This document shows positions 21,172-35,254 of a stretch of 64,000 nt of DNA, in pieces. Position 1 is the first letter of the stretch, and each line of letters starts with the position of its first letter. A program made the translations under genes and the position numbers. Origin of the DNA: a phage; assembly GCA_036252695.1 (NCBI GenBank), contig GCA_036252695.1_4122.1. One strand, written 5' to 3'. The notes under the pieces are model-generated. The model worked only from the letters and a program-made list of their open reading frames with translations, searched no databases and was not told the origin of the DNA.

Positions 21172-21667
21172 TACTAATATCTGGTTAGATAACATAATCA
21201 AGACATTAGAATTAATTAAACTTACATTACAAAAAACTACTGATATTGAAATTAATATTAAACAAGAAATATTAAACTATTATCATAGAAACAAATATAG
21301 CACGTTTATCTCTAAATTAATTTATGGATTATATGATATTGAAGATATTTGCATCGGTTACAGTACTGGTATTTGCTTCACAGTTAATGGTTTAAAAAAT
21401 GATTTAAATTTCAGACTTTCCGATGAAGAGCAAGATTTTCGTAGATTTTGTGATAATATTATGGATACAGATAAAATTACATTTGTTATTGAATTAAATC
21501 AAACGTGGTCTACATATGCAGATAAACCATTTGAAATTAATGAAACAGATGTGTTAAACTATATTCGAGTTATGAAAATTCATGATTTGTGTAAAAACGC
21601 ATTGTTAAGTATTGGAGCTTATAATGAAACATACGACTTGGTTGAAGATAGCAGAAGTAGTTGCTGA
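21143..21667 (+). CDS. hypothetical protein
   Basis: 174-aa ORF. Confidence 0.5.
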   Translation: MKYTHLSIDDTNIWLDNIIKTLELIKLTLQKTTDIEINIKQEILNYYHRNKYSTFISKLIYGLYDIEDICIGYSTGICFTVNGLKNDLNFRLSDEEQDFRRFCDNIMDTDKITFVIELNQTWSTYADKPFEINETDVLNYIRVMKIHDLCKNALLSIGAYNETYDLVEDSRSSC

Positions 21668-22103
21668 GGAAAGTAAATGTATTTCACAAAAAGTTGGTTG
21701 TGTTATTGTTAAAAATAACCGAGTATTGAGTACTGGATACAATGGTACTCCATCAAAACAACCAAATTGTTGTGATGTGAATCAACACTTAGTCAATGAT
21801 GGACGTTTTCAAGACTGGGTTAGTGATGAAGCAAAGCATGAACATCATGAGTGGAGTAATATTCATGAAATCCATGCTGAAATGAACGCTTTACTCTATA
21901 GTTCTCCTACTGAACGTCAAGGTGCTACTCTTTACACAACACTACAACCATGTTATACTTGTTCTAAGTTGATCGCAGGTAGTGGGATTTCACGTGTAAT
22001 TTATCTCAAAAATTATCCTCGTACACCACCAGAAGCTATTAAAGTACTGGAAGATGCTGGAATTATTGTTAATTGCATTTATGATAAGGGTCTTGATAAA
22101 TGA
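21624..22103 (+). CDS. cd: dCMP deaminase
   Basis: HAEMNA and PCYTCSK zinc-binding deaminase motifs; N-terminal ESKC; ATG at 21624 after GGAG. Confidence 0.8.
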   Translation: MKHTTWLKIAEVVAEESKCISQKVGCVIVKNNRVLSTGYNGTPSKQPNCCDVNQHLVNDGRFQDWVSDEAKHEHHEWSNIHEIHAEMNALLYSSPTERQGATLYTTLQPCYTCSKLIAGSGISRVIYLKNYPRTPPEAIKVLEDAGIIVNCIYDKGLDK

Positions 22104-22385: not shown

Positions 22386-22763
22386 TTAACCAGGGAGGTT
22401 ACAATAATACAAATCCCAAGGGTGATATTTCATCGCACCAGTACTCAATTTAATTTTATGAAACTGGAATGATTCGGCAAATGCACTATCGTCAATCTTA
22501 ATACAAAAAGTGTTTTTGGCTAGAGTTGGTGCAATTTCCAATGCTGTTTTAGATGCATCTAATCTAATTTTATCTTTATCATAACTAGTGATAGTTACAA
22601 AACGATAAACATTAAAATCAGTATCAATGAGATCGTAAACACAACTAGAACGTTGATTAAAGATGTTCAAGTTATATTTCAATTCACCGTTTATATTAGC
22701 TGCGGTTACACAAAACCCGCCGATATTGAATGGTAGTTTACCTTGTGCTGCGATAGCTTTCAT
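22386..22763 (-). CDS. hypothetical protein (only minus-strand gene in the window)
   Basis: 125-aa ORF on the opposite strand with AAGGAAA RBS (minus strand); bidirectional terminator on one side, AT-rich promoter region on the other. Confidence 0.55.
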   Translation of the reverse strand: MKAIAAQGKLPFNIGGFCVTAANINGELKYNLNIFNQRSSCVYDLIDTDFNVYRFVTITSYDKDKIRLDASKTALEIAPTLAKNTFCIKIDDSAFAESFQFHKIKLSTGAMKYHPWDLYYCNLPG

Positions 22764-22833
22764 ATTTTATTTCCTTTTTTAAATATAAGTATGAAATATA
22801 TTTGTTTTTTACATCAGATGCACCATGAACTAG

Positions 22834-22862
22834 TTGACAAAACATCAGTGGTATGATATGAT
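22834..22862 (+). promoter_or_regulatory. sigma70-like promoter (TTGACA-17-TATGAT)
   Basis: Consensus -35 with 17-nt spacer in the divergent intergenic region. Confidence 0.45.
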
Positions 22863-22924
22863 CTGTTATAAACTGTACACCTTAAGTTTTATTTTTAAAA
22901 ATTTGAGTTAAGTACAGAAAAAGT

Positions 22925-22953
22925 TTGACTTAAGTGTTTAAGTACTATATTAT
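22925..22953 (+). promoter_or_regulatory. second sigma70-like promoter (TTGACT-17-TATTAT)
   Basis: Tandem to the previous promoter, about 35 nt upstream of the protease gene. Confidence 0.4.
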
Positions 22954-22988
22954 TTATATCTTCCTAAACAAAATTGAGGACTTGTTAT

Positions 22989-23597
22989 ATGAAAAGACTA
23001 TGGCTTGAAGTGATACAAGCAGCGATGTTTCTATTGTTAATAAATTTTCCAGCCAGTGCTGGTATTGAAAGTAAAAATGTGATAAAGTATAATCCTGAAA
23101 CCCGAAATGTATATTTCATATCAGATATTACAGATGGGTCACTCAAGAGAATGATAGAGTTGTATGATAAAGAACACTATGATACCATCACAATTACATC
23201 TCCTGGTGGTGATTTTGATGCAGGTATTCGAATGGCAAACTTTGTTAGAGACAATGGGATAAATTTAATTGTTTCTAGGTATTGCAATTCAGCATGTACT
23301 GTGGTATTCTTTAGTGTATCTCCCGAAAAGCGATATATGACAAATCGCTCAGTACTGGGTCTTCATAACATTTCGATTAAAAGTAATGTTACTGATGGTG
23401 ATAATTCATTTGTGTCTGTAAGACAGCTATCAACTTTTACCGAAGAAATGGCAACAAAGGTAGGTTTCCTTTTTTCACTATATGCAGCAAATGGAATCCC
23501 ACCAGAAGTTCTATTTAGAGTTAGTCGTTCTCGTGGTGAAGATGTTGTAATATTAACAAAACCAGAACTGGTTTTTTACGGTTCAGTCAAACAATAA
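22989..23597 (+). CDS. ClpP-like (SPGG-motif) serine protease with a signal peptide
   Basis: ATG at 22989 after TGAGGA; hydrophobic N-terminus ending ASAG; ITSPGGDFDAG core and CNSAC / LGLHN at the positions of the ClpP Ser and His. Confidence 0.55.
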   Translation: MKRLWLEVIQAAMFLLLINFPASAGIESKNVIKYNPETRNVYFISDITDGSLKRMIELYDKEHYDTITITSPGGDFDAGIRMANFVRDNGINLIVSRYCNSACTVVFFSVSPEKRYMTNRSVLGLHNISIKSNVTDGDNSFVSVRQLSTFTEEMATKVGFLFSLYAANGIPPEVLFRVSRSRGEDVVILTKPELVFYGSVKQ

Positions 23598-23667
23598 AAA
23601 TAATTAAAATAACAGGATGATTATGATGTACTTCCTTTGTTATTAATTATATTGAGATTATATAACT

Positions 23668-23928
23668 ATGACAAACATCCAAAACTTGACATCTATTATT
23701 TTTTATGCTACTGTAGTAATGTATGCTACAGTTATTTTTCTAACAGTTTTCATTTACAAAGATTATCGTAATGGCTTTATTGATCCAACTACAATGAAGT
23801 TCAATTCAAAATTCGAAGCAATAATTTATTATGTACTATCAACTTCATACTTGGTGTGCCTAATGTTGTTAGGAGCACTAATTTATATCTTATACACAAC
23901 ATTATTTGCAATTGGAGCTATTTTATGA
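23668..23928 (+). CDS. small membrane protein
   Basis: 86 aa with several hydrophobic helices. Confidence 0.5.
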   Translation: MTNIQNLTSIIFYATVVMYATVIFLTVFIYKDYRNGFIDPTTMKFNSKFEAIIYYVLSTSYLVCLMLLGALIYILYTTLFAIGAIL

Positions 23929-24518
23929 CCTGTATTATTGCACACACTGACGGAGTAAGTTCTTTTATTGCTGGGGATAAGTTAGGAAGCAATGGATTTA
24001 CAAAAACTGTTCAAACTGAGCCAAAGGTATTCGAGAAAGAATTTATCAAGTTACATGATGATGGACTAACTAGAACTAAAGAAGTAATGGCATTGGGTTA
24101 TACTACATCATTTCGTATGGGTCAGTTGTTAAATTATAACCTTAATTTACCTGAACAAGATGCTAGTCAAACATTTTCACAATATTTGGTTCTTAAAGTT
24201 ATTCCAATCATTCGTCAAATGTTTAAAGAAGAATGGGGTGCACGAGATGCATCACAAGATGTAGGTGGTGGACAATTTATCATTCTCCACAATCATACAA
24301 TCTATGAAGTTCAAGAAGACTTTTCAGTACTACAACCTAAAACAAGAATTACCGCAGTAGGTAGTGGGACATATCATGCAATTGCAGCAATGCAAGCATA
24401 TATTGAAGTTGAGAACGAATCTAAAAAACCACTACACGAACGTATCAAATCAATTTTTAAAATTGTTAGTGATAATGTAACAAGCGTAAGCGAAGAGTTT
24501 GATGTTTTAAAATATTAA
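23925..24518 (+). CDS. HslV-like Ntn-hydrolase (proteasome beta-subunit fold) peptidase
   Basis: Internal ATG with ATGA overlap gives M-T-CIIAHTDGVSSFIAGD (Thr2 nucleophile, like HslV TTIVSV..VIAGDG); later ITAVGSGTYHAIAA resembles HslV IAIGSGGPYAQAA. Confidence 0.55.
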   Translation: MTCIIAHTDGVSSFIAGDKLGSNGFTKTVQTEPKVFEKEFIKLHDDGLTRTKEVMALGYTTSFRMGQLLNYNLNLPEQDASQTFSQYLVLKVIPIIRQMFKEEWGARDASQDVGGGQFIILHNHTIYEVQEDFSVLQPKTRITAVGSGTYHAIAAMQAYIEVENESKKPLHERIKSIFKIVSDNVTSVSEEFDVLKY

Positions 24519-24545
24519 AAGTACTAATATTATAAGAGAGAATAG

Positions 24546-24746
24546 ATGATGGCATACACAATTTATGAATGGGTTTTGAGTTTTTTTATAGTTTTTTCTA
24601 TTGTTGTAATTTATAACAATGCTAAATGCTTATATAGGGACTTGAAATCCAATGGTTATCACAAAGATAATAATTTTATGTATGCCTATCATATTGGAAT
24701 CATTCTGTTATTATCAATATATTTAATTGTTTTTTATAAGGATTGA
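24546..24746 (+). CDS. small membrane protein
   Basis: 66 aa with two hydrophobic helices. Confidence 0.45.
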   Translation: MMAYTIYEWVLSFFIVFSIVVIYNNAKCLYRDLKSNGYHKDNNFMYAYHIGIILLLSIYLIVFYKD

Positions 24747-24748
24747 AT

Positions 24749-25501
24749 ATGATATCAGAAAAATTTATAAGCAATGAAGGTAAAAAGCGATTACTGATTA
24801 TATCAGGTGCAGGACTTTCTGTTGAAAGTGGTATGGAACCTTTTCGATTTGATGATGGTTTGTGGGATACATTTAAAATTAATGATGTATGTAACATTGC
24901 TAGTTTAACTACAAAATATCATGTTGTTCATTCTTTCTATAATACATTACGTGTAAAATTGGGACAATGCGAACCAAATGCAATGCATTATTTTATAAAA
25001 TCGTTAGAAGATCAATATGGTGATTGCTTCCTTCATATGACTTCTAACATGGACGATCTTTATACTCGTATTGGTGGTCATGAGCTTAAACTTCATGGAA
25101 ACTTGTGTGAAGTTATTGAAAATTATAGTATCAATTCTGATGATTATAATGTTATTAACTGCGGATACGAACCATACATACCAAAACATGATGTTTTTGC
25201 TAAACCAAATGTAGTAATGATTGGAGAATATCATCGTTATGTTGATGGTATACGCTTACCAATTTACGAAGAACGAAATAATGTGTTGAAATCTCTTAAT
25301 GAAAATGATACAGTTATTGTAATTGGTAGTAGCGATACAGTACTGGTATGGTCGAGATTAGCAGCAGCATTACCATGTTATAGTGTTAATGTTAACATTC
25401 GTAAAAATGATAATGATTTTTTGTTTAATGAAAAAGTTATCAAGCCAGCAACCAAAGCAATACCACATCTAGAGACTATAATTAAGGAACGTATGAAATG
25501 A
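24749..25501 (+). CDS. Sir2-family NAD-dependent deacylase (CobB-type sirtuin)
   Basis: ISGAGLSVESGMEPFRFDDGLW NAD-binding motif; PNAMH..HMTSNMDDL (TQNID-like) and catalytic LHG colinear with E. coli CobB as recalled; ATG at 24749 after AAGGA. Confidence 0.75.
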   Translation: MISEKFISNEGKKRLLIISGAGLSVESGMEPFRFDDGLWDTFKINDVCNIASLTTKYHVVHSFYNTLRVKLGQCEPNAMHYFIKSLEDQYGDCFLHMTSNMDDLYTRIGGHELKLHGNLCEVIENYSINSDDYNVINCGYEPYIPKHDVFAKPNVVMIGEYHRYVDGIRLPIYEERNNVLKSLNENDTVIVIGSSDTVLVWSRLAAALPCYSVNVNIRKNDNDFLFNEKVIKPATKAIPHLETIIKERMK

Positions 25502-26049
25502 GTGTTAAAGAAGTTCCCTTTGGTGAATATGGCTCACGTGCAAATTTTGTATTTTGTTATTTCTTTGCAAGAAAATGTAACCCTTACAAAAACTATGAGT
25601 TGAATGATATACCAGAAGTAAATTTAGTTTTACTACAATTACGATGGGATGGTCTTCTTGGTGGATGTGGTGGAACCGTAGAAAGTACTGATATCTCACT
25701 AGAAGATGCGTTGCGTCGTGAAGTTCAAGAAGAAATGGATTACAATATTTTTGTTTCCCATCTTCGACCACTCAAAACTTTTGAAATTTACCCAGGTGCA
25801 AACAGTCACAGTTTTAGCTATGAAGTAACCTATGACGAGTTGAAACACATTAGAGATGGATACACTAATGCTAAACATGCAAGTGCAGAAGTTGCTGGTG
25901 TAAATTTATGTCATATTTCTCGTTATTCTAAGGGACAAAATCGAGAAGCGGGATATAATAATCTTATGACACAGAACTTCATCGGTACAGCAAGACAAGA
26001 ATTGGAGTATCTGGTTCAAAAAGAAAACTTACTAATTAGTTATCTATAG
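25498..26049 (+). CDS. Nudix-like hydrolase
   Basis: Nudix-box-like GGTVEST..LRREVQEEMDY segment (spacing slightly non-canonical); ATGA overlap with the sirtuin gene. Confidence 0.5.
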   Translation: MSVKEVPFGEYGSRANFVFCYFFARKCNPYKNYELNDIPEVNLVLLQLRWDGLLGGCGGTVESTDISLEDALRREVQEEMDYNIFVSHLRPLKTFEIYPGANSHSFSYEVTYDELKHIRDGYTNAKHASAEVAGVNLCHISRYSKGQNREAGYNNLMTQNFIGTARQELEYLVQKENLLISYL

Positions 26050-26058
26050 GAGTTTAAC

Positions 26059-26379
26059 ATGTCTTACGCAATGTTTTTGGATGATATTCGTGATGCAAAT
26101 CTATATTATCCAAACCAAGATATGGTGGTATGTCGTGACTTTAAAAGTGCATGTGAATATGTTATTGAAAATGGAATTCCAGCATTTGTATCATTCGACC
26201 ATGACTTGGGTGATGTGAGCGAAGACGAAAAGACTGGATATTCTTTTGCTAAGTTTCTTATTGATTATATGTTTGATAATAATATTAAAGAACCGTTTGA
26301 GTACTTTGTTCACAGTAGTAATCCTGTTGGTAAAATTAATATTGAAACATACTTAAACAATGGATTTAACGCATTATGA
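26059..26379 (+). CDS. hypothetical protein, possibly receiver-like fold
   Basis: 106 aa with LDDIRD, VSFDHDLG and VHSSNPVG in the order of receiver-domain acidic pocket / Asp / Ser-Thr positions; weak inference. Confidence 0.45.
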   Translation: MSYAMFLDDIRDANLYYPNQDMVVCRDFKSACEYVIENGIPAFVSFDHDLGDVSEDEKTGYSFAKFLIDYMFDNNIKEPFEYFVHSSNPVGKINIETYLNNGFNAL

Positions 26380-26678
26380 TTCAAACACACATCAAAAGTC
26401 TTATTTGTACTGTTCTGTTAGGTGCAGGAGTTCTTTGGTTCGGACAGTATCACGAGAACACTAAGCGTACCAACATTCACTACAATACCGCAGAAGTTGT
26501 TAGTTTAGGACAATGTAGCGAGTCCAAATGTTCATTCATGTATAAAACCCAAAGTGGTGAAGTACGTAATGGACTATCAAGAGAACCAGTTTCAATTGGT
26601 CAACTTGTTTACCAGGAGTGCTGGGAAGAAAAGGTTCGAGGTTCACGTTGCTATGTTGAATACGAACCAAATATGTAA
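26376..26678 (+). CDS. membrane-anchored hypothetical protein
   Basis: 100 aa with an N-terminal hydrophobic helix; stop-start overlap. Confidence 0.5.
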   Translation: MIQTHIKSLICTVLLGAGVLWFGQYHENTKRTNIHYNTAEVVSLGQCSESKCSFMYKTQSGEVRNGLSREPVSIGQLVYQECWEEKVRGSRCYVEYEPNM

Positions 26679-26738
26679 TAATCCGAGTCAATAACATTAG
26701 TCGAGTACAAGGATGTACTCATAACTCAAGGATGTTTT

Positions 26739-28178
26739 ATGAAAAAATATACAATTGACACAAATGTACTACTATCTGACCCTAATGCATCTATTGCTTT
26801 TGATGGTGCTGCAATCATTCTACCATTTACAGTACTGGAAGAATTGGATTCAATTAAGAGTCGTAATGTAGATGTTTCACGCGATGCTCGTGTTGCTATT
26901 CGTAACATTGAAGCAATTATTGCAGATGCATCACATGATGAGATTAGTAGTACTGGTGTTAATATTGCTGATGTTCATACCAATATGAATCCTGATAGCA
27001 AATTGTTTGTTATTACAAACGAAGAAGCTGAAGCACTAATTCGTACTAAAGGTTCAGAAGAGAAAGTTCAAACCCTTCTCAAAAGCACAGTACCTGATGA
27101 TAAAATCATTCTGGTAGCTTTAGCAACAGAATCAGTACTGGTAACTCGTGATATCAACATGCGTATCAAAGCACTAAGTTATGGTGTCGAGGTACAAGAT
27201 TATCGCCATGATATTGTTATTGGTGATAGTGATTTGATTCACATTGGTCAACACCATTTGGAAATTAATTTTTGGGAAGTATATAGCAACTTAACCAATA
27301 CTAATATTCAATCCGAACAAGTTGGTCGTCGTTTGTATCATTACATTTCTAAAAGCTTGATTGAACATTTGCTTCCACAAAATCTATGCATCGGTGATTA
27401 TCTATATGATGATGCTGACGTATTATTTGTGTACGAAGGACAATCAGCAATTGAGGAAGATGATGGAACACTAACACCAGAAGATATTTTGGTATTCCAA
27501 GACATTGGACAATCAGTGGCTTTACGTGCTAAAGTATGGGATATTAAAGCAAAGAATATCCAACAAGCACTCGCCATCAACAGTATTCTCGATCCTGATG
27601 TACATCTAACAGTACTGCTAGGTTCTGCTGGTACTGGTAAAACACTAATTACAATTGCTACTGCATTAGAATTAGTACTGGAAAAACGTAAATACGACCG
27701 AATCATCTTCTCTAAAACTCAAGACTCACAGTTTGAAGATATTGGTTTCTTGCCAGGTTCAGAAGCAGAAAAAGTGATTCCATTCTGTGGAGCCGCGATT
27801 GATGCGTTAGAGTTTCTTCATAAAGATGATGCCAACCCACAAGGTAGTATTGAAGAGATTATGAAACGTAATGTTATTCAATTTAAAGCACTAAACTTTG
27901 TACGTGGACGTTCATTCACCAACACTATTCTAGTAGTTGATGAATTCCAAAACATTACACCTGCACAAGCAAAAACCATCTTGACACGAGCAGGGTTAAA
28001 CTGTAAAGTAGTAATTATGGGTAACTTGAGTCAGATTGACAGTAAGTTTATTAGTCCTGTTAACAGTGGTTTGACATATGTAACTGAGAAGTTTAAAGAC
28101 TGGGCAGGTTGTCGTGTCATCGAACTAGAAGGTGTTGTTCGTTCACCACTGGCTGAATTTGCTGAAGAAAATATGTAA
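26739..28178 (+). CDS. phoH: PIN-PhoH (PhoH2-like) ATPase
   Basis: N-terminal PIN-like region (YTIDTNVLL) fused to a PhoH-type NTPase with Walker A GSAGTGKT and DEFQN Walker B. Confidence 0.75.
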   Translation: MKKYTIDTNVLLSDPNASIAFDGAAIILPFTVLEELDSIKSRNVDVSRDARVAIRNIEAIIADASHDEISSTGVNIADVHTNMNPDSKLFVITNEEAEALIRTKGSEEKVQTLLKSTVPDDKIILVALATESVLVTRDINMRIKALSYGVEVQDYRHDIVIGDSDLIHIGQHHLEINFWEVYSNLTNTNIQSEQVGRRLYHYISKSLIEHLLPQNLCIGDYLYDDADVLFVYEGQSAIEEDDGTLTPEDILVFQDIGQSVALRAKVWDIKAKNIQQALAINSILDPDVHLTVLLGSAGTGKTLITIATALELVLEKRKYDRIIFSKTQDSQFEDIGFLPGSEAEKVIPFCGAAIDALEFLHKDDANPQGSIEEIMKRNVIQFKALNFVRGRSFTNTILVVDEFQNITPAQAKTILTRAGLNCKVVIMGNLSQIDSKFISPVNSGLTYVTEKFKDWAGCRVIELEGVVRSPLAEFAEENM

Positions 28179-28186
28179 TATTGTAT

Positions 28187-28215
28187 GGGACATTACGTCC
28201 CATACATGATATAAT
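28187..28215 (+). promoter_or_regulatory. sigma70-like early promoter with overlapping hairpin
   Basis: gggaca, 17-nt spacer, TG-a-tataat; the -35 lies in a tgggac-attac-gtccca hairpin right after the phoH stop. Confidence 0.55.
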
Positions 28216-28246
28216 GTTGTTATCATAATACAGAAGGAGATATAAA

Positions 28247-28435
28247 ATGGCTAAACAACCTAAGAAACAAGAACCAGTAGCAAAAGTTAAGAAAGAGAAA
28301 GTTATTCAATCCAAAGAACAACGTATGTACGAACAACGTAAGAGTGAAACCCTATCCGGTCTACAAGCTCTACGTAAGCAAGGTGTACTAACTCGTGCAC
28401 AGTACCGTGAACTAGTAGCTCAGAAAGGTTTTTGA
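28247..28435 (+). CDS. small basic protein
   Basis: 62 aa, Lys/Glu-rich, behind a strong promoter and GAAGGAG RBS; C-terminal LTRAQYRELV resembles a SHOCT-like motif. Confidence 0.55.
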   Translation: MAKQPKKQEPVAKVKKEKVIQSKEQRMYEQRKSETLSGLQALRKQGVLTRAQYRELVAQKGF

Positions 28436-28539
28436 TTCATTTGAAGCAATATTGTGGAGTTCTTAATAAATACTTTTATAAGAATAATAATACTTTTTAT
28501 TAAATTAAAAAGAACTCCATGTGTTATTTCAGTTTTTCG

Positions 28540-28566
28540 TCCCTGTCTTTTGGCAGGGATTTTTTA
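28540..28566 (+). terminator. rho-independent terminator
   Basis: tccctg-loop-caggga hairpin followed by a T-run; a separate 10-bp inverted repeat (tggagttctt / aagaactcca) lies upstream. Confidence 0.5.
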
Positions 28567-28661
28567 TATCTATATCTTGACAAAAGGAACAAATCATGAG
28601 AACATGTATTAAAGGAAGAATGACTTTCCATTAGGTTATTTTAACTTAAAGGAGATTTCAT

Positions 28662-29219
28662 ATGTTTTTTGACCAAACATTTACGTTGTATCACGATTCT
28701 GGTAAAGTTGAGATTGTAGACGATCTACTTCAATACATTGCTGACCATCAAGGGATAGATCGTTTCCACAGTAAGATGAAATTTGATTTAGCAGAATTCA
28801 ACAAAAAGAATCGTGAAACTTTTTGGAAGAACCGTTTCTATTACGAATTGTTCCCAGAAGAGTTTGTGGGTTATTATCTTTGTACTGAAAAAGGATTACT
28901 TGTATCTCCTGATTTACTTATGGGTGAATACATGATACTCTATAATGAGTACTGGGAACATAAACGTAAAGCTCGTGATACGGAATGGCGACATAAGCGT
29001 TCGTATATGTACAAACATAACCACTCCCGATACAAGCGTCCTAAGACTCAACAAGAGCGTCGTATGGCTTGTGCAGTACTGAAGGATGAGGGGGAACCTG
29101 ATATACGTGGAAGACGTAAGATGCGTTCATTACCATCGTATTGGGACGATATCAGAACAAGACATAGTACTGGCTGGAAATACAGTACTAAACGTAAACA
29201 TCAATACAAAGGGAGCTAA
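28662..29219 (+). CDS. hypothetical basic protein
   Basis: 185 aa, Arg/Lys-rich C-terminal half; AAGGAG RBS. Confidence 0.55.
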   Translation: MFFDQTFTLYHDSGKVEIVDDLLQYIADHQGIDRFHSKMKFDLAEFNKKNRETFWKNRFYYELFPEEFVGYYLCTEKGLLVSPDLLMGEYMILYNEYWEHKRKARDTEWRHKRSYMYKHNHSRYKRPKTQQERRMACAVLKDEGEPDIRGRRKMRSLPSYWDDIRTRHSTGWKYSTKRKHQYKGS

Positions 29220-29246
29220 TGCTCCCTAATTTTATAGGTGAACTTT

Positions 29247-29576
29247 ATGAACAAAATTGACGTTACTGTAGTGATTGGTTATATTGAAATTGAACCGTGT
29301 GGCATTGATACCTTTATTGACACTCTTAATAAGTATCGTGCTGAATATAACGGTCACATTAGTCTTTCACCAGACAGTGGTTACGGCGGTTTTCATGGAT
29401 ACAATGTAATTTGGACCAGAGAAGAAACTGACGAAGAATATAATACACGAATTGAAGCTGAATCTAAAAGATGTGAAGAAATTGAACGTCAAGAAATGAA
29501 ACACTTAATGAACAAGAAATCATTAAGTACCGAAGAGAAATCTAAACTGCTAAAATACATCAAGGATTACATGTAA
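29247..29576 (+). CDS. hypothetical protein
   Basis: ATG at 29247 (track ORF opens at GTG 29238). Confidence 0.5.
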   Translation: MNKIDVTVVIGYIEIEPCGIDTFIDTLNKYRAEYNGHISLSPDSGYGGFHGYNVIWTREETDEEYNTRIEAESKRCEEIERQEMKHLMNKKSLSTEEKSKLLKYIKDYM

Positions 29577-30226
29577 TGAAAAATGTAACTCAAGAAAAGA
29601 TTCTGTACCTTGCAAAGTACAATGGTGGTTTCAATATCATTAGCCGTGAGTACAGTGGTAATTTGGCTAAGTTGATTGACAGTTTGTTAGAATTTGATTT
29701 CATTAAATGGGAAACTAATGAACTTTGGTACGAATATGCTGGTCAGAAATGGGAAAGTGATTATGATAATGCAATACATTCATACACTATCACCAAAGCA
29801 GGTGAAGTTCGATTAGCCATTATGCGTTGTGCATATACTTACAAAAATCATAAAGGTGAAGAAAAACATATTCGCAGAAATGAAGAGCTATTACTTCTCA
29901 TGGAAGCAGCAAAAGTTACAATGCATGATTTGTTCCACCACCCACGTTGGTATGAAAATCTAACAAAAGCAGAGTACAAAGCTTTACGTTACATTGATGA
30001 ACAAAACAATACCCCAGTTGTAGTTGATGATGTTTGTGATGGTGAACTAACCATCAAAAACGTATTTGAAAGCACCAGTACTGAAAGTATTACAGACATT
30101 TCTGTACAGATGGCACTAAAAGCAATGGAACTTTTCAAGACACAATATGAAGGACACAGTGCTGAAGAAGTAGAGCGTGAGTTCATCACACGCGTACAGA
30201 TTGCATTGTTCCAATCGAAAAAGTAG
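29576..30226 (+). CDS. hypothetical protein
   Basis: 216-aa ORF with ATGA overlap. Confidence 0.55.
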   Translation: MKNVTQEKILYLAKYNGGFNIISREYSGNLAKLIDSLLEFDFIKWETNELWYEYAGQKWESDYDNAIHSYTITKAGEVRLAIMRCAYTYKNHKGEEKHIRRNEELLLLMEAAKVTMHDLFHHPRWYENLTKAEYKALRYIDEQNNTPVVVDDVCDGELTIKNVFESTSTESITDISVQMALKAMELFKTQYEGHSAEEVEREFITRVQIALFQSKK

Positions 30227-30443
30227 GATGATATGAAATATGAACATCCGTGATGGGTTATCATATAAAGAAGCAGGTAAAGATGGTGTCAAAGGTGAAG
30301 CTGTAGATCTTTGCATTTGTGCACTTGACATGTTCGCTTTGTAATGCGATAATATGAGTTCAGAAGAGATGGAACGTGAGTTCCTTACTTACATGAATGT
30401 TAAACTAGCCAAATGGCGTAAATCAATTCAATAGGTATTTTAA

Positions 30444-31415
30444 ATGAAAACTAAAATTATTTCTGAACAAAAAATTGGCAATACTACAGTACTGAATCTT
30501 GAAGTTCAAGGTCTTAGTAATGTTCGTTCTCTTACGGTTTGTACTCAGAGAGATGATTTGACTGATTTCTATAGCTCAGAATACATGTCAGAAGAACCTT
30601 GGGATATGGGATGGTTGGACGGTAGTAGTTATATCAGTTCACGTTATAGTTTTGGTTCTCATGAAAATATTGAACAATTAAAAAATGAGTATATTAAACT
30701 CAGTGATACTATTGAAATGAAAGAAGAAGATTGTGTAGAACTTTTCATTTTTGAATTCGATGCCGGAAATGGTAATTCATTACTAGTAAGTAATATTGAA
30801 GAACATTTAATGTATCATGAAATTGAAGATGTAGATTTTGAAAGTATTAAAAATGTTGTTCATATGGTTGGTGGTAGTATTACTGATGATTCAGATATCG
30901 GTCATAATATTTCACTGTGCTTAATTTCTCATCCAAAAACTCGTGGTTTTAAAGTTCCACAAGATGAAACTTACGTGTCTGAAACTGCTGATGAAGGAAT
31001 TTATCCTTGGAATGATTATGTAGAATACTATGGTCATTTCTGTTCTGATACAAAAGAACTGAAAAAAGGCGAACAATATTTTGATATGTTCCGTGCTGCA
31101 CAGCGTTTAGTACTGAATAATACTGAACTATTTCCTGATCGCGGCGAAGAAAATATGATTGATATTATCTTCAAGAACTATGATTATGTACAGAACATTC
31201 CTGATAATGTACATTTGGAATATGTTCACGGTTCTTCAAACAAATTCTATAATATTGAATTGAATGCTCCAGTGTGTGAAGTAATTATTGAGTACGGTGC
31301 TATTGGTAAAACCAGTACTACAGATGGTGAAGAATTCGAAACTATTGAAGAAGCACGTAAGTTCTTCGAGAAGAAAGTAATTTCTAAAATTAAAAGTGGT
31401 TATAGCCCAAAATGA
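30444..31415 (+). CDS. WGR-domain protein
   Basis: C-terminal ~80 aa (SSNKFYNIEL..YGAIGKT...EEARKFFEKK...GY) matches the WGR pattern; N-terminal 240 aa unassigned. Confidence 0.55.
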   Translation: MKTKIISEQKIGNTTVLNLEVQGLSNVRSLTVCTQRDDLTDFYSSEYMSEEPWDMGWLDGSSYISSRYSFGSHENIEQLKNEYIKLSDTIEMKEEDCVELFIFEFDAGNGNSLLVSNIEEHLMYHEIEDVDFESIKNVVHMVGGSITDDSDIGHNISLCLISHPKTRGFKVPQDETYVSETADEGIYPWNDYVEYYGHFCSDTKELKKGEQYFDMFRAAQRLVLNNTELFPDRGEENMIDIIFKNYDYVQNIPDNVHLEYVHGSSNKFYNIELNAPVCEVIIEYGAIGKTSTTDGEEFETIEEARKFFEKKVISKIKSGYSPK

Positions 31416-31792
31416 AAATCACACGCTTTGGTAAAACCTTTGAACTAAACATTGTTTCTGTTTATAAAAAAGGAAAATCAGGAAAGTTAAGCACTGATAA
31501 TATTAGATTTGTTATTAGTGATTATTATGATATGTTTAATCAGGCATTTGAAGAAAATAAATTTGGTTTGATTTTATGTAAACCACAAAAACCGGAATTA
31601 GGTATTTTGGATTTAAGAACTGATAAGTCTGATTTTATTGGTAATCTTGATATTATTGAATTTAAAGTTGATATATCAAAAGAACATTTTAGAGTTAAAA
31701 ACTATAATTATTACAAAGTTGATATTAATTCTATCGAAGTACAAAAAGTACTTGATGAACTTATCAGTAATAATTCGTGTTTTACTAAATGA
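31412..31792 (+). CDS. hypothetical protein
   Basis: 126-aa ORF with ATGA overlap. Confidence 0.5.
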   Translation: MKITRFGKTFELNIVSVYKKGKSGKLSTDNIRFVISDYYDMFNQAFEENKFGLILCKPQKPELGILDLRTDKSDFIGNLDIIEFKVDISKEHFRVKNYNYYKVDINSIEVQKVLDELISNNSCFTK

Positions 31793-32037
31793 GAAAAAAT
31801 ATCATGAAAAATATATTCATTACATTAACAATATTTGTATCCATTATTCTCTGTGGTTGTGCTCCTAAAGTTGATGAGATGGATGCTGAAATCATCCGTC
31901 AAGGTTTAACAAAACTAAATCATCAAGGAACACTATACGCATGTCATACTATGCGTCATGGGCAAGATCTTAACCTCATGTGCAGGAAGATTGTGAATCG
32001 CAAACGTCTTAATACTGTTCCGAAGGATGCACAATGA
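31789..32037 (+). CDS. putative lipoprotein
   Basis: Hydrophobic signal sequence ending in lipobox-like ILCGCA. Confidence 0.5.
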   Translation: MRKNIMKNIFITLTIFVSIILCGCAPKVDEMDAEIIRQGLTKLNHQGTLYACHTMRHGQDLNLMCRKIVNRKRLNTVPKDAQ

Positions 32038-32200
32038 AAGAAGTAATTGGCTACAAATGTAAAAATTGTGGCAAAGATAAGGGTAAGCATTCAATACAAG
32101 GGATGGCTTGTCCAAATCCAGGACGTGGAAATTTCAGAGGGTTCAGTACTGAAAAGTCTTACGAACCGGATCATACCAAACCTGTAATGGGTTATAAATT

Positions 32201-32560
32201 ATGAGTGATTATGTAGCATTTCTTCATCGCTTTGGAGAAGCTAAAGAAAAACATATTATCCGTATGCCATTATATGGTGAAAAAGACTGGTACAAAAGTA
32301 CTGTCAGTGTAGGTGCATTTCGTGACCGTGAAGCTGGATTCTTTCTGGGTAAGCAACATGAACGAGAGGTACTTTGCTCACTTTGGCGTTTAGATGAATG
32401 GGATAGTGATAACGTAAGAACTGCTGAATCAATGATGGCTATTGTTGGTATTGCGAACTATCAGCACCCATATGATCTATTACCTACATTTGAACATGCT
32501 TCTTTGTTTGACTTTTACAAAGCAGTAGGGTATGATTATAAAAAGAAACGTTACGTTTAA
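32201..32560 (+). CDS. hypothetical protein
   Basis: 119-aa ORF. Confidence 0.5.
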   Translation: MSDYVAFLHRFGEAKEKHIIRMPLYGEKDWYKSTVSVGAFRDREAGFFLGKQHEREVLCSLWRLDEWDSDNVRTAESMMAIVGIANYQHPYDLLPTFEHASLFDFYKAVGYDYKKKRYV

Positions 32561-32606
32561 CATCAGTACTGCCATCGTGTGCAGTACTTTTTAATTGGAG
32601 ATTACT

Positions 32607-33221
32607 ATGACTACATCGGAAAAGTACTGGTGGATTTTGGGTCATCCTAAATTCATAAACAAAGATATGGTTCCAGCTAGGATTGATATTGAACCTCATG
32701 ATGTGTGTCCAATGACAAATCGAATTGAAGATTTCAAAGCATTGAATACAAAGACTCAATTTTGGGTAGAATTTCTTTCACCAATGTATATTGAGCAAGA
32801 CGACGAATGGGTACAAGCACATGATTATCAATTGGATTGTGGTGGTGATACGTATGAAGAGGCCATTGATGAATTATACAAAAATGTTCTGAACACATAT
32901 GGGGATTATACCCAACAGGAAGCAGATGATAAATTTCATAAAATACATTCATTCAATGCATCACAATCAATATATAATCCCGCTAAAACAGTTTGGGAGG
33001 AACGACACAGTTGGAGTTCATGTGTAATCGATGAAGAAACCAAAGAAAAAATCATCGATGACATAAAAAATTTAAAAAATACAATCCAAGCCTTGCGTGC
33101 ATTCATAAAGTCTTGTACAATAGGAGAACAGCAAGAGGCAAAGATACATTTGGAGAGTGAAGAATGTAAACTTTGGGTTCTAGAAAAATCACTTGAAAAG
33201 GGTATAGACTTAGACTTATGA
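32607..33221 (+). CDS. hypothetical protein
   Basis: ATG at 32607 after GGAG (track ORF opens at TTG 32595). Confidence 0.5.
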   Translation: MTTSEKYWWILGHPKFINKDMVPARIDIEPHDVCPMTNRIEDFKALNTKTQFWVEFLSPMYIEQDDEWVQAHDYQLDCGGDTYEEAIDELYKNVLNTYGDYTQQEADDKFHKIHSFNASQSIYNPAKTVWEERHSWSSCVIDEETKEKIIDDIKNLKNTIQALRAFIKSCTIGEQQEAKIHLESEECKLWVLEKSLEKGIDLDL

Positions 33222-33586
33222 ATAGTAAATTGGAGAAACTTGTTGAAGAATTACGCCGGATGCCACCTATTGAGCAAGTAGGGAACTACAAGCGGTATCG
33301 TGTGATTGCTCGTGCACTGGATAAAAAAGGTCGAGTACTGGCAACTCGCACAAATTCTTATACACAGACTCACCCAGTACAGAAGGGTTTCGCCATTCGT
33401 GCTGGGCGACCGCAAGGTGAGTTTCTTCATGCTGAAATTTCATGTTTACTGGCTGCTCGTGCTGATGTTCATACTTTACTGATTGCACGGATAAGTAAAG
33501 ATGGAATTCCTGTACCTGCCAAACCATGTGAAATTTGCACATTAGCAATTATGGAATACGGGGTTAAGGAAATTATCCACACATGA
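33218..33586 (+). CDS. small CDA-fold deaminase-like protein
   Basis: HAEISCLLAA and PCEICTLA zinc-binding motifs (H-A-E ... P-C-x-x-C) in a 122-aa protein, distinct from cd. Confidence 0.5.
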   Translation: MNSKLEKLVEELRRMPPIEQVGNYKRYRVIARALDKKGRVLATRTNSYTQTHPVQKGFAIRAGRPQGEFLHAEISCLLAARADVHTLLIARISKDGIPVPAKPCEICTLAIMEYGVKEIIHT

Positions 33587-33807
33587 AGAAAATCGAGCGT
33601 TATACAAACCATACTGTTGTAGTTGAAAATGATATATTTTATTATTATATTTTCAGACCTATACATTGTTGCCAAATAACAACATTCAATAGTGGAAGGT
33701 TTTATGACAAGAACTTTCACATTACTGAGTTAGCAAAATATTCCAGTACTGAACACTTTAGTAATCTAGTATATGTGTACTGTATACCAAACCCAAATAA
33801 TAAGTAG
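33583..33807 (+). CDS. hypothetical protein
   Basis: 74-aa ORF. Confidence 0.4.
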   Translation: MKKIERYTNHTVVVENDIFYYYIFRPIHCCQITTFNSGRFYDKNFHITELAKYSSTEHFSNLVYVYCIPNPNNK

Positions 33808-33816
33808 GAGATTAAA

Positions 33817-34176
33817 ATGGCTAAAACTATTTCTTTAAAAAATGAAAATGTAGGACAACGCAAAGATGGTTTCTTTGGATTCTCATGGACAACACTATTC
33901 TTTGGACCATTCCCTGCATTGTTTCGTGGTGACTTTATTACGTTCATCGGTGCATTTGTAATTTACTTCATCCTCAACGCAGTGTCATTTTGGATTGTGG
34001 GTACAATTGCAATGGTCGTGTGGGCATTTCTTTACAATAAGTACTACACAGTGAATCTCATTAAGAATGGGTATAAATTCAATGGCACACATGAAGAAAA
34101 TGCTGAAGCTGCAATGGCTTTACAAATTGATTTGAATAAAAACAACACAGTTGATAAAAACAAAGATCCAGAATAA
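33817..34176 (+). CDS. membrane protein
   Basis: 119 aa with two or three hydrophobic helices; AGGAG RBS. Confidence 0.55.
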   Translation: MAKTISLKNENVGQRKDGFFGFSWTTLFFGPFPALFRGDFITFIGAFVIYFILNAVSFWIVGTIAMVVWAFLYNKYYTVNLIKNGYKFNGTHEENAEAAMALQIDLNKNNTVDKNKDPE

Positions 34177-34395
34177 ATGGAAAAATATGACATAATTTAC
34201 GATTATTATGGTAAGGCTTATATGAAGTGTGGGCGTTATGTTGAACTCTCTAATAGAGAATCAATAGATCCCCACACTCTTATAACAATTCATAATTCGT
34301 ACTATAAAAAAGTTACAATAGCTAATTTCGCTACATACGTGAATAATCCATTATTTCCTTACATTATTCAGTACTACTGTCGAGTTATAAAATAA
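34177..34395 (+). CDS. hypothetical protein
   Basis: 72-aa ORF. Confidence 0.45.
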   Translation: MEKYDIIYDYYGKAYMKCGRYVELSNRESIDPHTLITIHNSYYKKVTIANFATYVNNPLFPYIIQYYCRVIK

Positions 34396-34405
34396 GGTAA
34401 AAAAA

Positions 34406-34816
34406 ATGTTAGCCGATGATTTTATGTCTCTAAGTACCAAGATATTTGATATATTAGGAGATGAAATAGATTTCCACCTAAATGATACAACTATACCGTT
34501 CGAAGATGGTGGTTATTTTTTTGCATTTGGTTATAAGTACAATGTTGATTTCTCAATTCCGATTCCTGATGGAAGTGATTATACATCATCAACATATTTT
34601 GAATTTCAGTTCAACGGACACAAAGAGCGTTTACTAACATATAGACGTAAAGGTAATTTCAGTAGACCAGAGATTATATTAATGGATATTGAAAAACGAA
34701 TAGAAATTGCAAAGAATAATCCATTCTTCAGTTCTTATGCGTTAAACCAACTTATTGAACTATTTGATGGCTATCCAGACAGAATACGAGGGTCGTTACG
34801 TATCAATGCAGAATGA
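34406..34816 (+). CDS. hypothetical protein
   Basis: 136-aa ORF. Confidence 0.5.
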   Translation: MLADDFMSLSTKIFDILGDEIDFHLNDTTIPFEDGGYFFAFGYKYNVDFSIPIPDGSDYTSSTYFEFQFNGHKERLLTYRRKGNFSRPEIILMDIEKRIEIAKNNPFFSSYALNQLIELFDGYPDRIRGSLRINAE

Positions 34817-34991
34817 AATCTTTAAAAAAGAATACGATGGTGAAAGTCTCTATGATATTCAGAGAGATGTGCATGAAGCCTTCGATTCAAGATTTAACCC
34901 ATTAGCTGAACAAATCCCACAAGATGAGTTTGGTTTTCAAGAAGGGACGTTCACAGTAACTATTACATGGAGTCCAGATGAGACTAGCTAA
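34806..34991 (+). CDS. hypothetical protein
   Basis: Internal ATG of track ORF 34755..34991; start uncertain. Confidence 0.35.
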   Translation: MQNEIFKKEYDGESLYDIQRDVHEAFDSRFNPLAEQIPQDEFGFQEGTFTVTITWSPDETS

Positions 34992-35093
34992 ACTTGTCAT
35001 AGGTTGCAGTGCACTTGCTGCATATATGCTTTTTTCCGCACCAACCAATGTATTACTGCTAATTTGGGCAGTTGTTATATTAGCAGTACTTTA

Positions 35094-35117
35094 AAAGCAC
35101 CCTTGTGGTGCTTTTTC
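35094..35117 (+). terminator. rho-independent terminator
   Basis: agcacc-cttgt-ggtgct hairpin followed by a T-run; near-identical to the one after nrdG. Confidence 0.5.
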
Positions 35118-35254
35118 TATTTGTGCAAATAAAAAGCAATGTGACTTTTCCTTGATATAGGTCAAGAGAAATAACCTGTTCTGACGCTATAATGTTGTCT
35201 GGTGATATTAAATATCTTCACCCCCAGATGATTTCAAAATACAAGGAATGTACA

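What the first reader, a model, noticed from the sequence alone, without database searches (positions are those of the whole stretch)
33218..33586. Second, minimal CDA-fold deaminase distinct from dCMP deaminase
A 122-aa protein carries the H-A-E ... P-C-x-x-C zinc-binding signature of cytidine/adenosine deaminases but is much shorter than, and unlike, the cd product at 21624. It could be a TadA-like tRNA or nucleic-acid base editor, or a nucleotide-modifying enzyme used for DNA modification or anti-defence.
Basis: partly seen in the sequence, partly recalled or inferred. Interest (0 to 1): 0.5.

Follow-up and report, generated by a model that had tools for sequence, protein, structure and literature searches.

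The report
Minimal basic phage zinc deaminase
This jumbo-phage gene encodes a real but unusually tiny and strongly positively charged zinc deaminase from a large phage-only family that is neither the phage's ordinary dCMP deaminase nor a TadA, and whose substrate (free cytosine nucleotide or cytosine in RNA/DNA) is still unknown.

Summary

A conventional T4-type dCMP deaminase sits at 21624-22103. The two proteins show no BLASTP similarity to each other.

The small protein belongs to a large family (at least 1,126 clusters at 50% identity) that looks phage-restricted. Members are about 100-135 aa and uniformly very basic (median pI 9.7, net charge about +9). They share the signature N-S-Y-x-K-[TS]-H-P-x-Q, HAE, an invariant Arg, and PCxxC.

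A full-length relative models with a beta4-beta5 hairpin and no helix-4. That places the family in the CDA/toxin-deaminase division, not the dCMP-deaminase/TadA division. The window copy has lost beta5.

The gene is under strong purifying selection. Its phiKZ homologue has its own transcription start detected early in infection. No gene partner is conserved across the family; RaK2-like phages add an overlapping, very acidic upstream gene.

The substrate is unresolved. I favour cytosine in a polynucleotide (about 0.4) over a free dC nucleotide (about 0.35).

The parts
33218..33586 (+). Minimal zinc deaminase gene (122 aa plus stop). It equals 121Q gp490, Sharanji gp468 and phAPEC6 gp330c.
33428..33436 (+). 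H71-A72-E73: the zinc ligand His and the catalytic Glu in helix 2.
   Evidence: Read from the sequence. Conserved in 150-151 of 151 family representatives. Aligned to the HAE of 4P9C and 2HVV.
33524..33538 (+). P103-C104-E-I-C107: the two zinc-ligand cysteines at the start of helix 3.
   Evidence: Read from the sequence. Both Cys are conserved in 151 of 151 representatives. Aligned to the PCxxC of solved dCMP deaminases.
33353..33382 (+). Family-specific insert signature, N46-S-Y-T-Q-T-H52-P53-V-Q55. It follows strand 2 and leads into an extra helix (aa 53-61) before HAE.
   Evidence: Conservation: N46 149/151, H52 138/151, P53 137/151, Q55 134/151. Helix 53-61 is seen in the model.
33488..33490 (+). 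R91, a nearly invariant Arg at the end of strand 3. It is followed by a roughly 10-residue insert before PCxxC.
   Evidence: Conserved in 148 of 151 representatives. Position taken from the model's secondary structure.
32607..33221 (+). Upstream gene whose stop overlaps the deaminase start (ATGA). The protein is about 204-208 aa and very acidic (pI 4.66, net -19). Function unknown (phrog_16370). It is a conserved partner only within RaK2-like jumbo phages.
   Evidence: ORF; charge; PHROG hit. Orthologues overlap the deaminase start in RaK2, XbC2 and fHe-Yen9-03. It is absent next to the deaminase in phiKZ, Aeromonas and metagenomic loci.
33583..33807 (+). Downstream 74-aa ORF whose start overlaps the deaminase stop (ATGA). 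No family hits.
32565..32588 (+). Terminator-like hairpin upstream of the unit that holds the deaminase.
   Evidence: The G17 record annotates two terminators in window 32000-35200.
35093..35115 (+). Terminator-like hairpin between the deaminase unit and nrdD.
21624..22103 (+). Canonical T4-type dCMP deaminase (cd), 159 aa. This is the comparator the finding refers to; it is not part of the minimal-deaminase unit.
   Evidence: It carries GYNGTP, HAEMNAL, TLYTT and VIY, the dCMP/ComE clade features listed in PMC3239186.
35192..37060 (+). nrdD, the anaerobic ribonucleotide reductase large subunit (annotated start 35255). It lies downstream of the deaminase in all RaK2-like phages examined.

Best explanation
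Shown: the gene encodes a zinc-dependent hydrolytic deaminase with every catalytic feature intact. It belongs to a large family that looks phage-restricted. Members are ultra-small (about 100-135 aa) and strongly basic. The family falls in the C-terminal-hairpin division of the deaminase superfamily, and the window copy is a derived form that ends after strand 4. It is not an orthologue of dCMP deaminase, which the phage encodes separately, and it is not a TadA.

Inferred chemistry: zinc held by H71, C104 and C107 activates a water molecule. E73 shuttles the proton. The exocyclic amine of a cytosine is replaced by a carbonyl (C to U). Cytosine is inferred because every characterised hairpin-division enzyme, and all the closest sequence relatives, act on cytosine.

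Inferred substrate (the weakest step): a cytosine embedded in a polyanion, most probably RNA or single-stranded DNA rather than free dCMP.

Inferred biology: the enzyme works as a stand-alone accessory enzyme made early in infection. In RaK2-like phages such as this one it is translationally coupled to a very acidic upstream protein, which may bind and mask or regulate it.
For: Enzyme and fold; catalytic residues conserved in 150-151 of 151 representatives; purifying selection.

Phage restriction: at least 566 IMG/VR loci carry the family motifs. The same motifs found only 15 MAG contigs, and no isolate genome, among 185,579 species genomes.

Polyanionic substrate:
- The family has median pI 9.70, 97% of 301 members are above 8.5, and the median net charge is +9.
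- Canonical phage dCMP deaminases have net charge -3 to +2, and the window's ORFs have a median pI of 5.8.
- About 13-15 alignment positions are predominantly Lys or Arg, so the charge is positional rather than compositional.
- In PMC3239186, loss of C-terminal elements is reported for toxin clades and for Bd3614, not for the nucleoside or nucleotide metabolic deaminases listed there.

Non-redundancy: the gene coexists with a canonical cd here and in the distant phage XbC2.

Early, stand-alone expression: PHIKZ260 has its own primary transcription start in early infection. No neighbour family occurs in more than 16 of 80 loci.
Against: No assay exists for any member of the family.

Profile similarity is highest to free-nucleotide enzymes:
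- S-TIM5, S. mutans and T4 dCMP deaminases in the PDB sequence search.
- The anti-phage dCTP deaminase domain, tetrameric CDA and ComEB in the NCBIfam vote.

In all RaK2-like phages the gene lies just upstream of nrdD-nrdG, next to thymidylate kinase in XbC2, and one metagenomic locus has nrdAB and glutaredoxin nearby. That fits a nucleotide-metabolism role.

A DNA cytosine deaminase would endanger the phage's own genome unless it were controlled.

Charge is only indirect evidence. I had no model coordinates, so I could not test whether the pocket is open to a polymer.
Confidence: 0.4

Rival explanations
1. It is an auxiliary free-nucleotide cytosine deaminase. It would act on dCMP, dCDP, dCTP, or CMP/cytidine, be unregulated, and feed dUMP or dUTP into thymidylate synthesis for this AT-rich genome. 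This is what the current 'dCMP deaminase' annotation implies.
For: - GenBank and PHROG labels.
- The best PDB sequence-profile hits are dCMP deaminases, at E 1.8e-6 to 1.2e-5.
- The NCBIfam vote favours the dCTP-deaminase domain (54/81), tetrameric CDA (33/81) and ComEB (24/81).
- The residues equivalent to T4 Cd's contacts with the dC moiety (V24, N40, A105, E106, P131) are present as V29, N46, A72, E73 and P103.
- Position upstream of nrdD-nrdG is conserved, with tmk alongside in XbC2, and nrdAB-grx lies nearby in L012.
- PMC12697855 shows that phage enzymes of this superfamily vary in the phosphate state they accept, and conserved basic residues could bind a triphosphate.
Against: - The phage already has a canonical cd, and the pair is retained in distant relatives.
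- The protein lacks helix-4, the second zinc site, NxxP, NA and TxxxT.
- A net charge of +9 on about 120 aa is far outside the range of the canonical enzymes sampled.
- The family looks absent from cellular genomes, which is unusual for a metabolic enzyme.
- Terminator-like hairpins separate the gene from nrdD.
- Synteny within one collinear phage supergroup is weak evidence. Outside it there is no consistent nucleotide-metabolism neighbour.
Confidence: 0.35
2. It deaminates a phosphate-rich small signalling or modified nucleotide. Examples would be a cyclic pyrimidine or oligonucleotide immune signal, or a modified dC precursor. In that case it would act as an anti-defence or DNA-modification enzyme.
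For: - The basic charge fits multiply phosphorylated ligands.
- The gene is early and stand-alone, and sits in hypervariable accessory islands.
- Acb1 (anti-CBASS) and an Alt-like ADP-ribosyltransferase lie nearby in one T4-like lineage.
- A GGDEF/Cas10-palm-like gene lies nearby in L010.
- The family looks phage-restricted.
Against: - The argument is purely contextual, and the neighbours reflect synteny within one lineage.
- No paper in the searchable library reports a deaminase-based anti-signalling mechanism.
- Strong purifying selection and moderate conservation are not typical of arms-race genes.
Confidence: 0.1
3. It is a TadA-like tRNA adenosine(34) deaminase that serves phage or host tRNA-Arg.
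Against: - The family lies in the hairpin division, whereas TadA lies in the helix-4 division.
- There is no EPCxMC motif and there are no C-terminal helices.
- The NCBIfam TadA model does not hit the window protein and hits only 10 of 81 members weakly.
- All adenine and guanine deaminases listed in PMC3239186 are in the helix-4 division.
- There is no tRNA gene in the window.
Confidence: 0.05
4. It is a catalytically dead deaminase-fold protein that only binds nucleic acid or another protein.
For: The fold is truncated, with no strand 5, and the protein is very basic.
Against: The His, Glu and both Cys are conserved in 150-151 of 151 representatives. Purifying selection is strong. Inactive paralogues such as Tad3 typically lose the Glu (PMC3239186).
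Confidence: 0.03

Closest known systems
dCMP deaminase / ComE clade (T4 Cd 1VQ2, cyanophage S-TIM5 4P9C, S. mutans 2HVV; IPR016473)
   Different: It has no helix-4; the family has a beta4-beta5 hairpin and the window copy has no beta5 at all. It has no second zinc site and lacks the NxxP, HAExNA and TxxxT motifs. Net charge is +8 or +9 against -3 to +2. There is no BLASTP similarity to the phage's own cd. The family looks absent from cellular genomes.
Tetrameric cytidine deaminase and blasticidin-S deaminase (CDD/CDA clade; 3DMO, 3B8F, 3OJ6)
   Different: HAE rather than the usual CAE. No Arg after PCxxC. A family-specific insert (NSYxK[TS]HPxQ plus a helix) and a second insert after strand 3. 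Only 15-21% identity. TIGR01354 scores 13.8 bits against a cut-off of 113.65. The protein is strongly basic. The window copy lacks beta5.
Bacterial toxin deaminases of the hairpin division (MafB19, YwqJ, DddA/SCP1.201, SsdA/DYW-like)
   Same: The hairpin division. HxE variants occur in these clades. [quoted passage not shown] Like MafB19, it has N at the end of strand 2 and G at the start of strand 4. These clades act on DNA or RNA.
TadA/ADAT2 tRNA adenosine deaminases
   Different: TadA is in the helix-4 division with two extra C-terminal helices and an EPCxMC motif. All of these are absent here.
Deaminase domain of anti-phage dCTP deaminases (NCBIfam NF041025; PADLOC 'dCTPase')
   Same: This is the most frequent sub-threshold NCBIfam resemblance (54 of 81 members, best E 1.7e-8). 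PADLOC gives weak hits for 28 of 81.
   Different: Those are roughly 440-aa multidomain host defence proteins. Here the gene is about 100-130 aa, stands alone and is phage-encoded. The window protein scores 11.6 bits against a cut-off of 400 and has no PADLOC hit.

Membership tests
CDA-fold zinc deaminase superfamily (Pfam PF00383 / clan CL0109) | H/CxE in helix 2 and PCxxC in helix 3 as zinc ligands and catalytic Glu | tested here: met
   H71-A-E73 and P103-C-E-I-C107. Aligned to the same residues of 4P9C, 2HVV and 1VQ2. Conserved in 150-151 of 151 relatives.
CDA-fold zinc deaminase superfamily (Pfam PF00383 / clan CL0109) | Profile score above the curated threshold | tested here: met
   29.4 bits against a gathering score of 25. 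All 81 family members scanned hit PF00383 at E <= 0.1, best 3e-16.
CDA-fold zinc deaminase superfamily (Pfam PF00383 / clan CL0109) | Three-layer alpha/beta/alpha deaminase fold | tested here: met
CDA-fold zinc deaminase superfamily (Pfam PF00383 / clan CL0109) | Five-stranded core sheet (strand 5 present) | tested here: not met
   The window protein ends at T122, right after strand 4 (aa 118-121). 54 of 141 representatives end within 15-17 residues of PCxxC. Longer relatives do have strand 5. Such truncations are documented within the superfamily.
dCMP deaminase / ComE clade (Iyer et al. 2011, PMC3239186) | Helix-4 between strands 4 and 5 (helix-4 division) | tested here: not met
   The window model has nothing after strand 4. 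The relative P0243 has a direct beta4-beta5 hairpin. This rests on predicted structures.
dCMP deaminase / ComE clade (Iyer et al. 2011, PMC3239186) | [quoted passage not shown] | tested here: not met
   The protein has only three Cys (C76, C104, C107), none of them in the insert, and the insert has a single helix at aa 53-61. Note that PMC12697855 says the DSS3_VP1 enzyme, compared there with human dCMP deaminase, also lacks this structural metal site.
dCMP deaminase / ComE clade (Iyer et al. 2011, PMC3239186) | [quoted passage not shown] | tested here: not met
   N46-S-Y-T; the Pro comes seven residues later. The phage's canonical cd has N-G-T-P.
dCMP deaminase / ComE clade (Iyer et al. 2011, PMC3239186) | [quoted passage not shown] | tested here: not met
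   HAE-I-S-C here. In the family, position 75 is A, S or D and position 76 is Ala. The canonical cd has HAEMNAL.
dCMP deaminase / ComE clade (Iyer et al. 2011, PMC3239186) | TxxxT in Str-3 | tested here: not met
   T86-L-L-I-A-R91. The family has an invariant Arg at the end of the strand instead. The canonical cd has T-L-Y-T-T.
dCMP deaminase / ComE clade (Iyer et al. 2011, PMC3239186) | [quoted passage not shown] | tested here: inconclusive
   Position 121 is His here and Tyr in 99 of 151 relatives, but no helix-4 follows it.
TadA/Tad2 clade | EPC(l)MC motif, a basic residue after Str-4, and two helices after Str-5 | tested here: not met
   The motif is K-P-C-E-I-C and the chain ends after strand 4. 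The NCBIfam TadA model does not hit the window protein.
CDD/CDA cytidine deaminase clade | C-terminal beta4-beta5 hairpin | tested here: inconclusive
CDD/CDA cytidine deaminase clade | C[H]AE in Hel-2, PCxxCR in Hel-3, and the equivalog model score | tested here: not met
   HAE, the minority variant, is present, but position 108 is Thr (Q, E or M in the family), not Arg. TIGR01354 scores 13.8 bits against a cut-off of 113.65.
MafB19 toxin deaminase clade (Iyer 2011 definition) | [quoted passage not shown] | tested here: not met
   N46, HAE and G115 are met. V/I89 lies two residues before the strand end. K102 is at -2 rather than -3 from the Cys. No secretion domains are present, and no immunity gene is conserved across the family. 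Pfam PF14437 scores 14.6 bits against 27, and that model differs from the Iyer clade.
YwqJ toxin deaminase clade | [quoted passage not shown] | tested here: not met
   The His-bearing insert (H52), the insert after Str-3 and the truncation after Str-4 are all present. However, the motif is [YF]-L-H-A-E with no Gly. There is no hit to a YwqJ-deaminase Pfam model.
Function: deaminase activity and substrate | Measured zinc content and turnover on a defined substrate | not testable with these tools
   No assay for any family member was found in the searchable literature.

The most novel reading that the evidence does not exclude
The family would be the smallest natural polynucleotide cytosine deaminases: about 100-122 aa with a four-stranded core. 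They would be deployed by large phages early in infection to edit host or phage RNA (tRNA, rRNA or mRNA) or single-stranded DNA. In RaK2-like phages the co-translated, highly acidic upstream protein would act as a built-in inhibitor, chaperone or nucleic-acid mimic. If this is true, it reveals phage-directed nucleic-acid editing as an infection strategy. It would also provide an ultra-compact scaffold for base editors.
Probability: 0.35. Interest if true: 0.8.

Novelty: new variant of a known kind. Interest (0 to 1): 0.5.

Why it matters
Three reasons.

First, annotation. In the records and collections I examined, genes of this family carry automated labels such as 'dCMP deaminase', 'deoxycytidylate deaminase' or 'TadA', or are left as hypothetical. 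The evidence here says they are a separate, phage-only clade in a different structural division. The labels, and the metabolic reconstructions built on them (for example 'two dCMP deaminases make dUMP'), are therefore unsafe.

Second, phage biology. The enzyme is strongly conserved, stand-alone, highly basic, and present in jumbo phages (RaK2-like, phiKZ-like), T4-like phages and cyanophages. That points to an unrecognised step in infection: either an extra pyrimidine-pool activity or editing of nucleic acids.

Third, enzymology and biotechnology. With about 100 aa and only four strands, these would be among the smallest deaminase-fold enzymes I know of (my own knowledge; not checked with the tools). 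If they act on DNA or RNA, they would be attractive compact editor domains.

Tried and rejected
- **Neighbourhood analysis.** I looked at 12 individual loci and clustered the ORFs of 80 IMG/VR loci. No partner is conserved across the family. The apparent NT5C adjacency (median distance 60 bp) holds in only 3 loci. The recurrent neighbours (RNase H, PhoH, Acb1, PAAR and others) reflect synteny in one T4-like lineage.
- **An acidic partner as a family-wide feature.** Rejected. It is confined to RaK2-like phages, with a possible analogue in S-SCSM1.
- **Virion packaging as the reason for the basic charge.** The phAPEC6 homologue gp330c is not named in the main text of the virion-proteome paper. 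This is only a weak negative.
- **Pfam MafB19-deam hits as evidence of toxin-clade membership.** Rejected. The phage's canonical cd hits the same model more strongly, and the NEB study shows that the Pfam model differs from the Iyer clade.
- **PADLOC.** No hit for the window protein.
- **The Sharanji paper's 'tRNA-specific adenosine deaminase'.** This turned out to be the other, canonical deaminase ORF.
  - The afdb50 library was not available.
They may therefore miss divergent members.
  - Model coordinates are not exposed, so I could not analyse electrostatics or pocket accessibility.
  - I could not test co-occurrence with canonical cd, thyA or dcd across complete genomes, because only 60 rows of each BLAST result are listed.
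Full report
**What is there.** Window 33218-33586 (+) is an ATG-started ORF of 122 aa. It carries L-H71-A-E73 and K-P103-C-E-I-C107. Its start overlaps the stop of the upstream ORF (ATGA). Its stop overlaps the start of a 74-aa ORF (ATGA).

The window is 100% identical to Escherichia jumbo phages vB_EcoM_G17 and Sharanji, and 98.8% identical to 121Q (Asteriusvirus, RaK2-like supergroup). The ORF is labelled 'dCMP deaminase' in 121Q (gp490) and 'hypothetical' in Sharanji (gp468) and phAPEC6 (gp330c).

**Is it a deaminase?** Yes.
- Pfam PF00383 scores 29.4 bits against a gathering score of 25. PHROG 174 scores 6.6e-13.
- A family profile aligns HAE and PCxxC with the zinc and catalytic residues of the solved dCMP deaminases 4P9C, 2HVV and 1VQ2.
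- An AlphaFold model built on 24 homologues has pLDDT 92 and pTM 0.83. Its elements are helix 3-14, strands 28-34 and 40-45, an insert helix 53-61, helix 72-80 (HAE), strand 86-92, helix 105-114 (PCxxC) and strand 118-121, after which the chain ends.
- The gene is under strong purifying selection: 18 synonymous and 0 non-synonymous differences against 121Q, and dN/dS 0.07 against phAPEC6.

**The second deaminase.** Window 21624-22103 encodes a 159-aa protein that scores 78 bits on PF00383. It is about 41% identical over its full length to T4-type cd genes. It shows GYNGTP, HAEMNAL, TLYTT and VIY, which are the clade features Iyer et al. list for dCMP deaminase/ComE (PMC3239186).

The two window proteins have no BLASTP similarity (E = 12). 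The 'tRNA-specific adenosine deaminase' of the Sharanji paper is this canonical ORF, not the minimal one. Both deaminases also coexist in the distant Xanthomonas phage XbC2. A 2017 paper on phage CBB already noted 'two CMP/dCMP deaminases'.

**The family.**
- An exhaustive profile search finds 1,126 clusters (50% identity) at E <= 1e-10. Nearly all are 96-166 aa.
- A second search finds 766 clusters in the named collection. All come from phage or metagenomic contigs and carry only automated names.
- Known phage carriers include RaK2-like, Erwinia, Yersinia and Xanthomonas jumbo phages, phiKZ (ORF260), Aeromonas phages, Salicola SCTP-2 and many Synechococcus myophages.
- Two family motifs recover at least 566 loci in IMG/VR. 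In 185,579 species-representative genomes they recover only 15 loci. All 15 are MAG contigs assigned to unrelated taxa, and none is an isolate genome. I read this as restriction to phages. The caveat is that the scans were motif-limited.
- Across 151 representatives the conserved signature is N46-S-Y-x-K-[TS]-H52-P53-x-Q55, [YF]-L-H71-A-E73, R91, G96, A-K-P103-C-x-I-C107 and [YHF]121-[TS]122.
- Many members are only about 100 aa and also lack the N-terminal helix.

**Fold division.** Tails after PCxxC are bimodal. Of 141 representatives, 54 end within 15-17 residues, as the window protein does. About 60 carry 23-30 residues, of the type 'YTTDDGY...E'.

By the Iyer et al. classification, the family belongs to the C-terminal-hairpin division, with CDA, BSD, DYW and the toxin deaminases. 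[quoted passage not shown] The window protein is a derived form without beta5.

It fails at least one defining motif of every named clade I could test; the membership table gives the details. It shares individual traits with YwqJ (a His-bearing insert, an insert after strand 3, truncation after strand 4) and with MafB19 (N, HxE, G before strand 4). Independently, a structure-clustering study reported that the InterPro 'dCMP' family splits into two structurally different clades.

**Clues to the substrate.** For a free cytosine nucleotide:
- Sub-threshold profile resemblance is mostly to cytosine nucleos(t)ide enzymes: the anti-phage dCTP-deaminase domain 54/81, tetrameric CDA 33/81, ComEB 24/81, against TadA 10/81.
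- Equivalents of T4 Cd's contacts with the dC moiety are present.
- In RaK2, XbC2, fHe-Yen9-03 and this phage the gene lies 0.5-2 kb upstream of nrdD-nrdG. XbC2 also has thymidylate kinase there.
- One metagenomic locus has nrdAB and glutaredoxin nearby.

Against that reading, and for a polyanionic (nucleic-acid) substrate:
- The family is uniformly very basic. Median pI is 9.70, 97% of 301 members are above 8.5, and median net charge is +9. The window protein has pI 9.71 and net +8.
- By contrast, the canonical cd of the same phage has net -1. Canonical phage dCMP deaminases sampled elsewhere have -3 to +2. E. coli TadA (sequence recalled from memory) has 0. The window's ORFs have a median pI of 5.8.
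- About 13-15 alignment columns are predominantly Lys or Arg, so the charge is positional.
- In Iyer et al., loss of C-terminal elements is reported for toxin clades and Bd3614, not for the nucleoside or nucleotide metabolic deaminases.
- The gene coexists with a canonical cd.
- The family looks absent from cellular genomes.
- Terminator-like hairpins at 32565-32588 and 35093-35115 separate its unit from nrdD.
- Synteny with nrdD is seen only within one collinear supergroup.

The base is probably cytosine. All characterised hairpin-division enzymes act on cytosine, and the adenine and guanine deaminases sit in the other division. This step is an inference.

**Expression and partners.**
- PHIKZ260 has its own primary transcription start in early-infection dRNA-seq.
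- In 80 viral loci, no neighbour family is present in more than 16. The immediate neighbours are mostly singletons.
- The recurrent neighbours are T4 RNase H, DUF6433, PhoH, a PD-(D/E)XK nuclease, NT5C, PAAR, Acb1 and a metallophosphoesterase. They reflect one T4-like lineage.
- In RaK2-like phages only, the upstream gene overlaps the deaminase start and encodes a very acidic protein. Net charge is -19 here and -15 to -31 in RaK2, XbC2 and fHe-Yen9-03. Its function is unknown (phrog_16370). A complex in which the partner masks or regulates the deaminase is plausible but untested.

**Verdict.** What I add is fourfold. The protein represents a large, phage-only, ultra-small, basic clade. That clade sits in a different structural division from dCMP deaminase and TadA. 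The window copy has lost strand 5. The current 'dCMP deaminase' or 'TadA' labels are not justified by membership tests.

The substrate is unresolved. I put about 0.4 on cytosine in a polynucleotide and about 0.35 on a free dC nucleotide. About 0.1 goes to another phosphate-rich small molecule, such as an immune signal, and about 0.05 to TadA-like activity. No functional study of the family was found.

Noticed in passing
window 21624-22103 (+): The canonical T4-type dCMP deaminase (about 41% identical over its full length to T4-like cd genes, with all the dCMP/ComE clade motifs) is annotated 'tRNA-specific adenosine deaminase' in the Sharanji record (gp491, WNN14772.1). The Sharanji paper discusses it as a translation factor. 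This is probably a mis-annotation.
   Followed up: yes
window 32607-33221 (+): The upstream gene encodes a very acidic protein of unknown function (pI 4.66, net -19, phrog_16370). It is translationally coupled to the basic deaminase. RaK2, XbC2 and fHe-Yen9-03 keep it with the same overlap, at net -15 to -31. It could be a partner, inhibitor or nucleic-acid mimic.
   Followed up: partly
window 31789-32037 (+): An 82-aa ORF starts MRKNIMKNIFITLTIFVSIILCGCAPK..., which is a signal peptide with a lipobox-like L-C-G-C. It is a possible phage lipoprotein, for example for superinfection exclusion or a spanin-type role.
   Followed up: no
window 32034-32204 (+): A 56-aa ORF contains C-K-N-C and a later Cys/Pro-rich stretch (MKEVIGYKCKNCGKDKGKHSIQGMACPNPGRG...). 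It may be a small zinc-ribbon-like protein. No Pfam hit.
   Followed up: no
window about 22400-31400 (via 121Q/Sharanji annotations: L001 171-5355; L002 1019-13416): Upstream of the deaminase unit the orthologous records annotate two ClpP-like proteases, a Sir2/CobB-like NAD-dependent deacylase, a PhoH-like protein and a WGR-domain protein. ClpP or ClpXP/ClpS and PhoH also recur near the minimal deaminase in unrelated phage contigs (L007, L009, L011).
   Followed up: no
L010 8896-9570 (JGI 3300002026 contig, 183 kb): A phage-encoded 224-aa protein with GGDEF and weak Cas10-palm hits lies 1.5 kb downstream of the minimal deaminase. It may be a nucleotide cyclase.
   Followed up: no
L009 3414-6713: In a T4-like metagenomic phage, an Acb1 anti-CBASS nuclease, a PD-(D/E)XK protein and a 665-aa ADP-ribosyltransferase (Alt-like) sit immediately upstream of the minimal deaminase. 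Acb1 recurs in 11 of 80 related viral loci.
   Followed up: partly
GCA_041445565.1 contig of 34,870 bp (no DNA held): The minimal-deaminase homologue P0049 lies within 2-7 kb of T4 Rnl1-type and Rnl2-type RNA ligases and a PNKP-like kinase/phosphatase, which are tRNA-repair genes. RtcB is nearby in L012.
   Followed up: no
L004 4636-4941 (Synechococcus phage S-SCSM1): A 101-aa, very acidic ORF (net -15) abuts the start of the cyanophage's minimal deaminase. It may be an analogue of the acidic partner seen in RaK2-like phages. No sequence similarity was detected.
   Followed up: no
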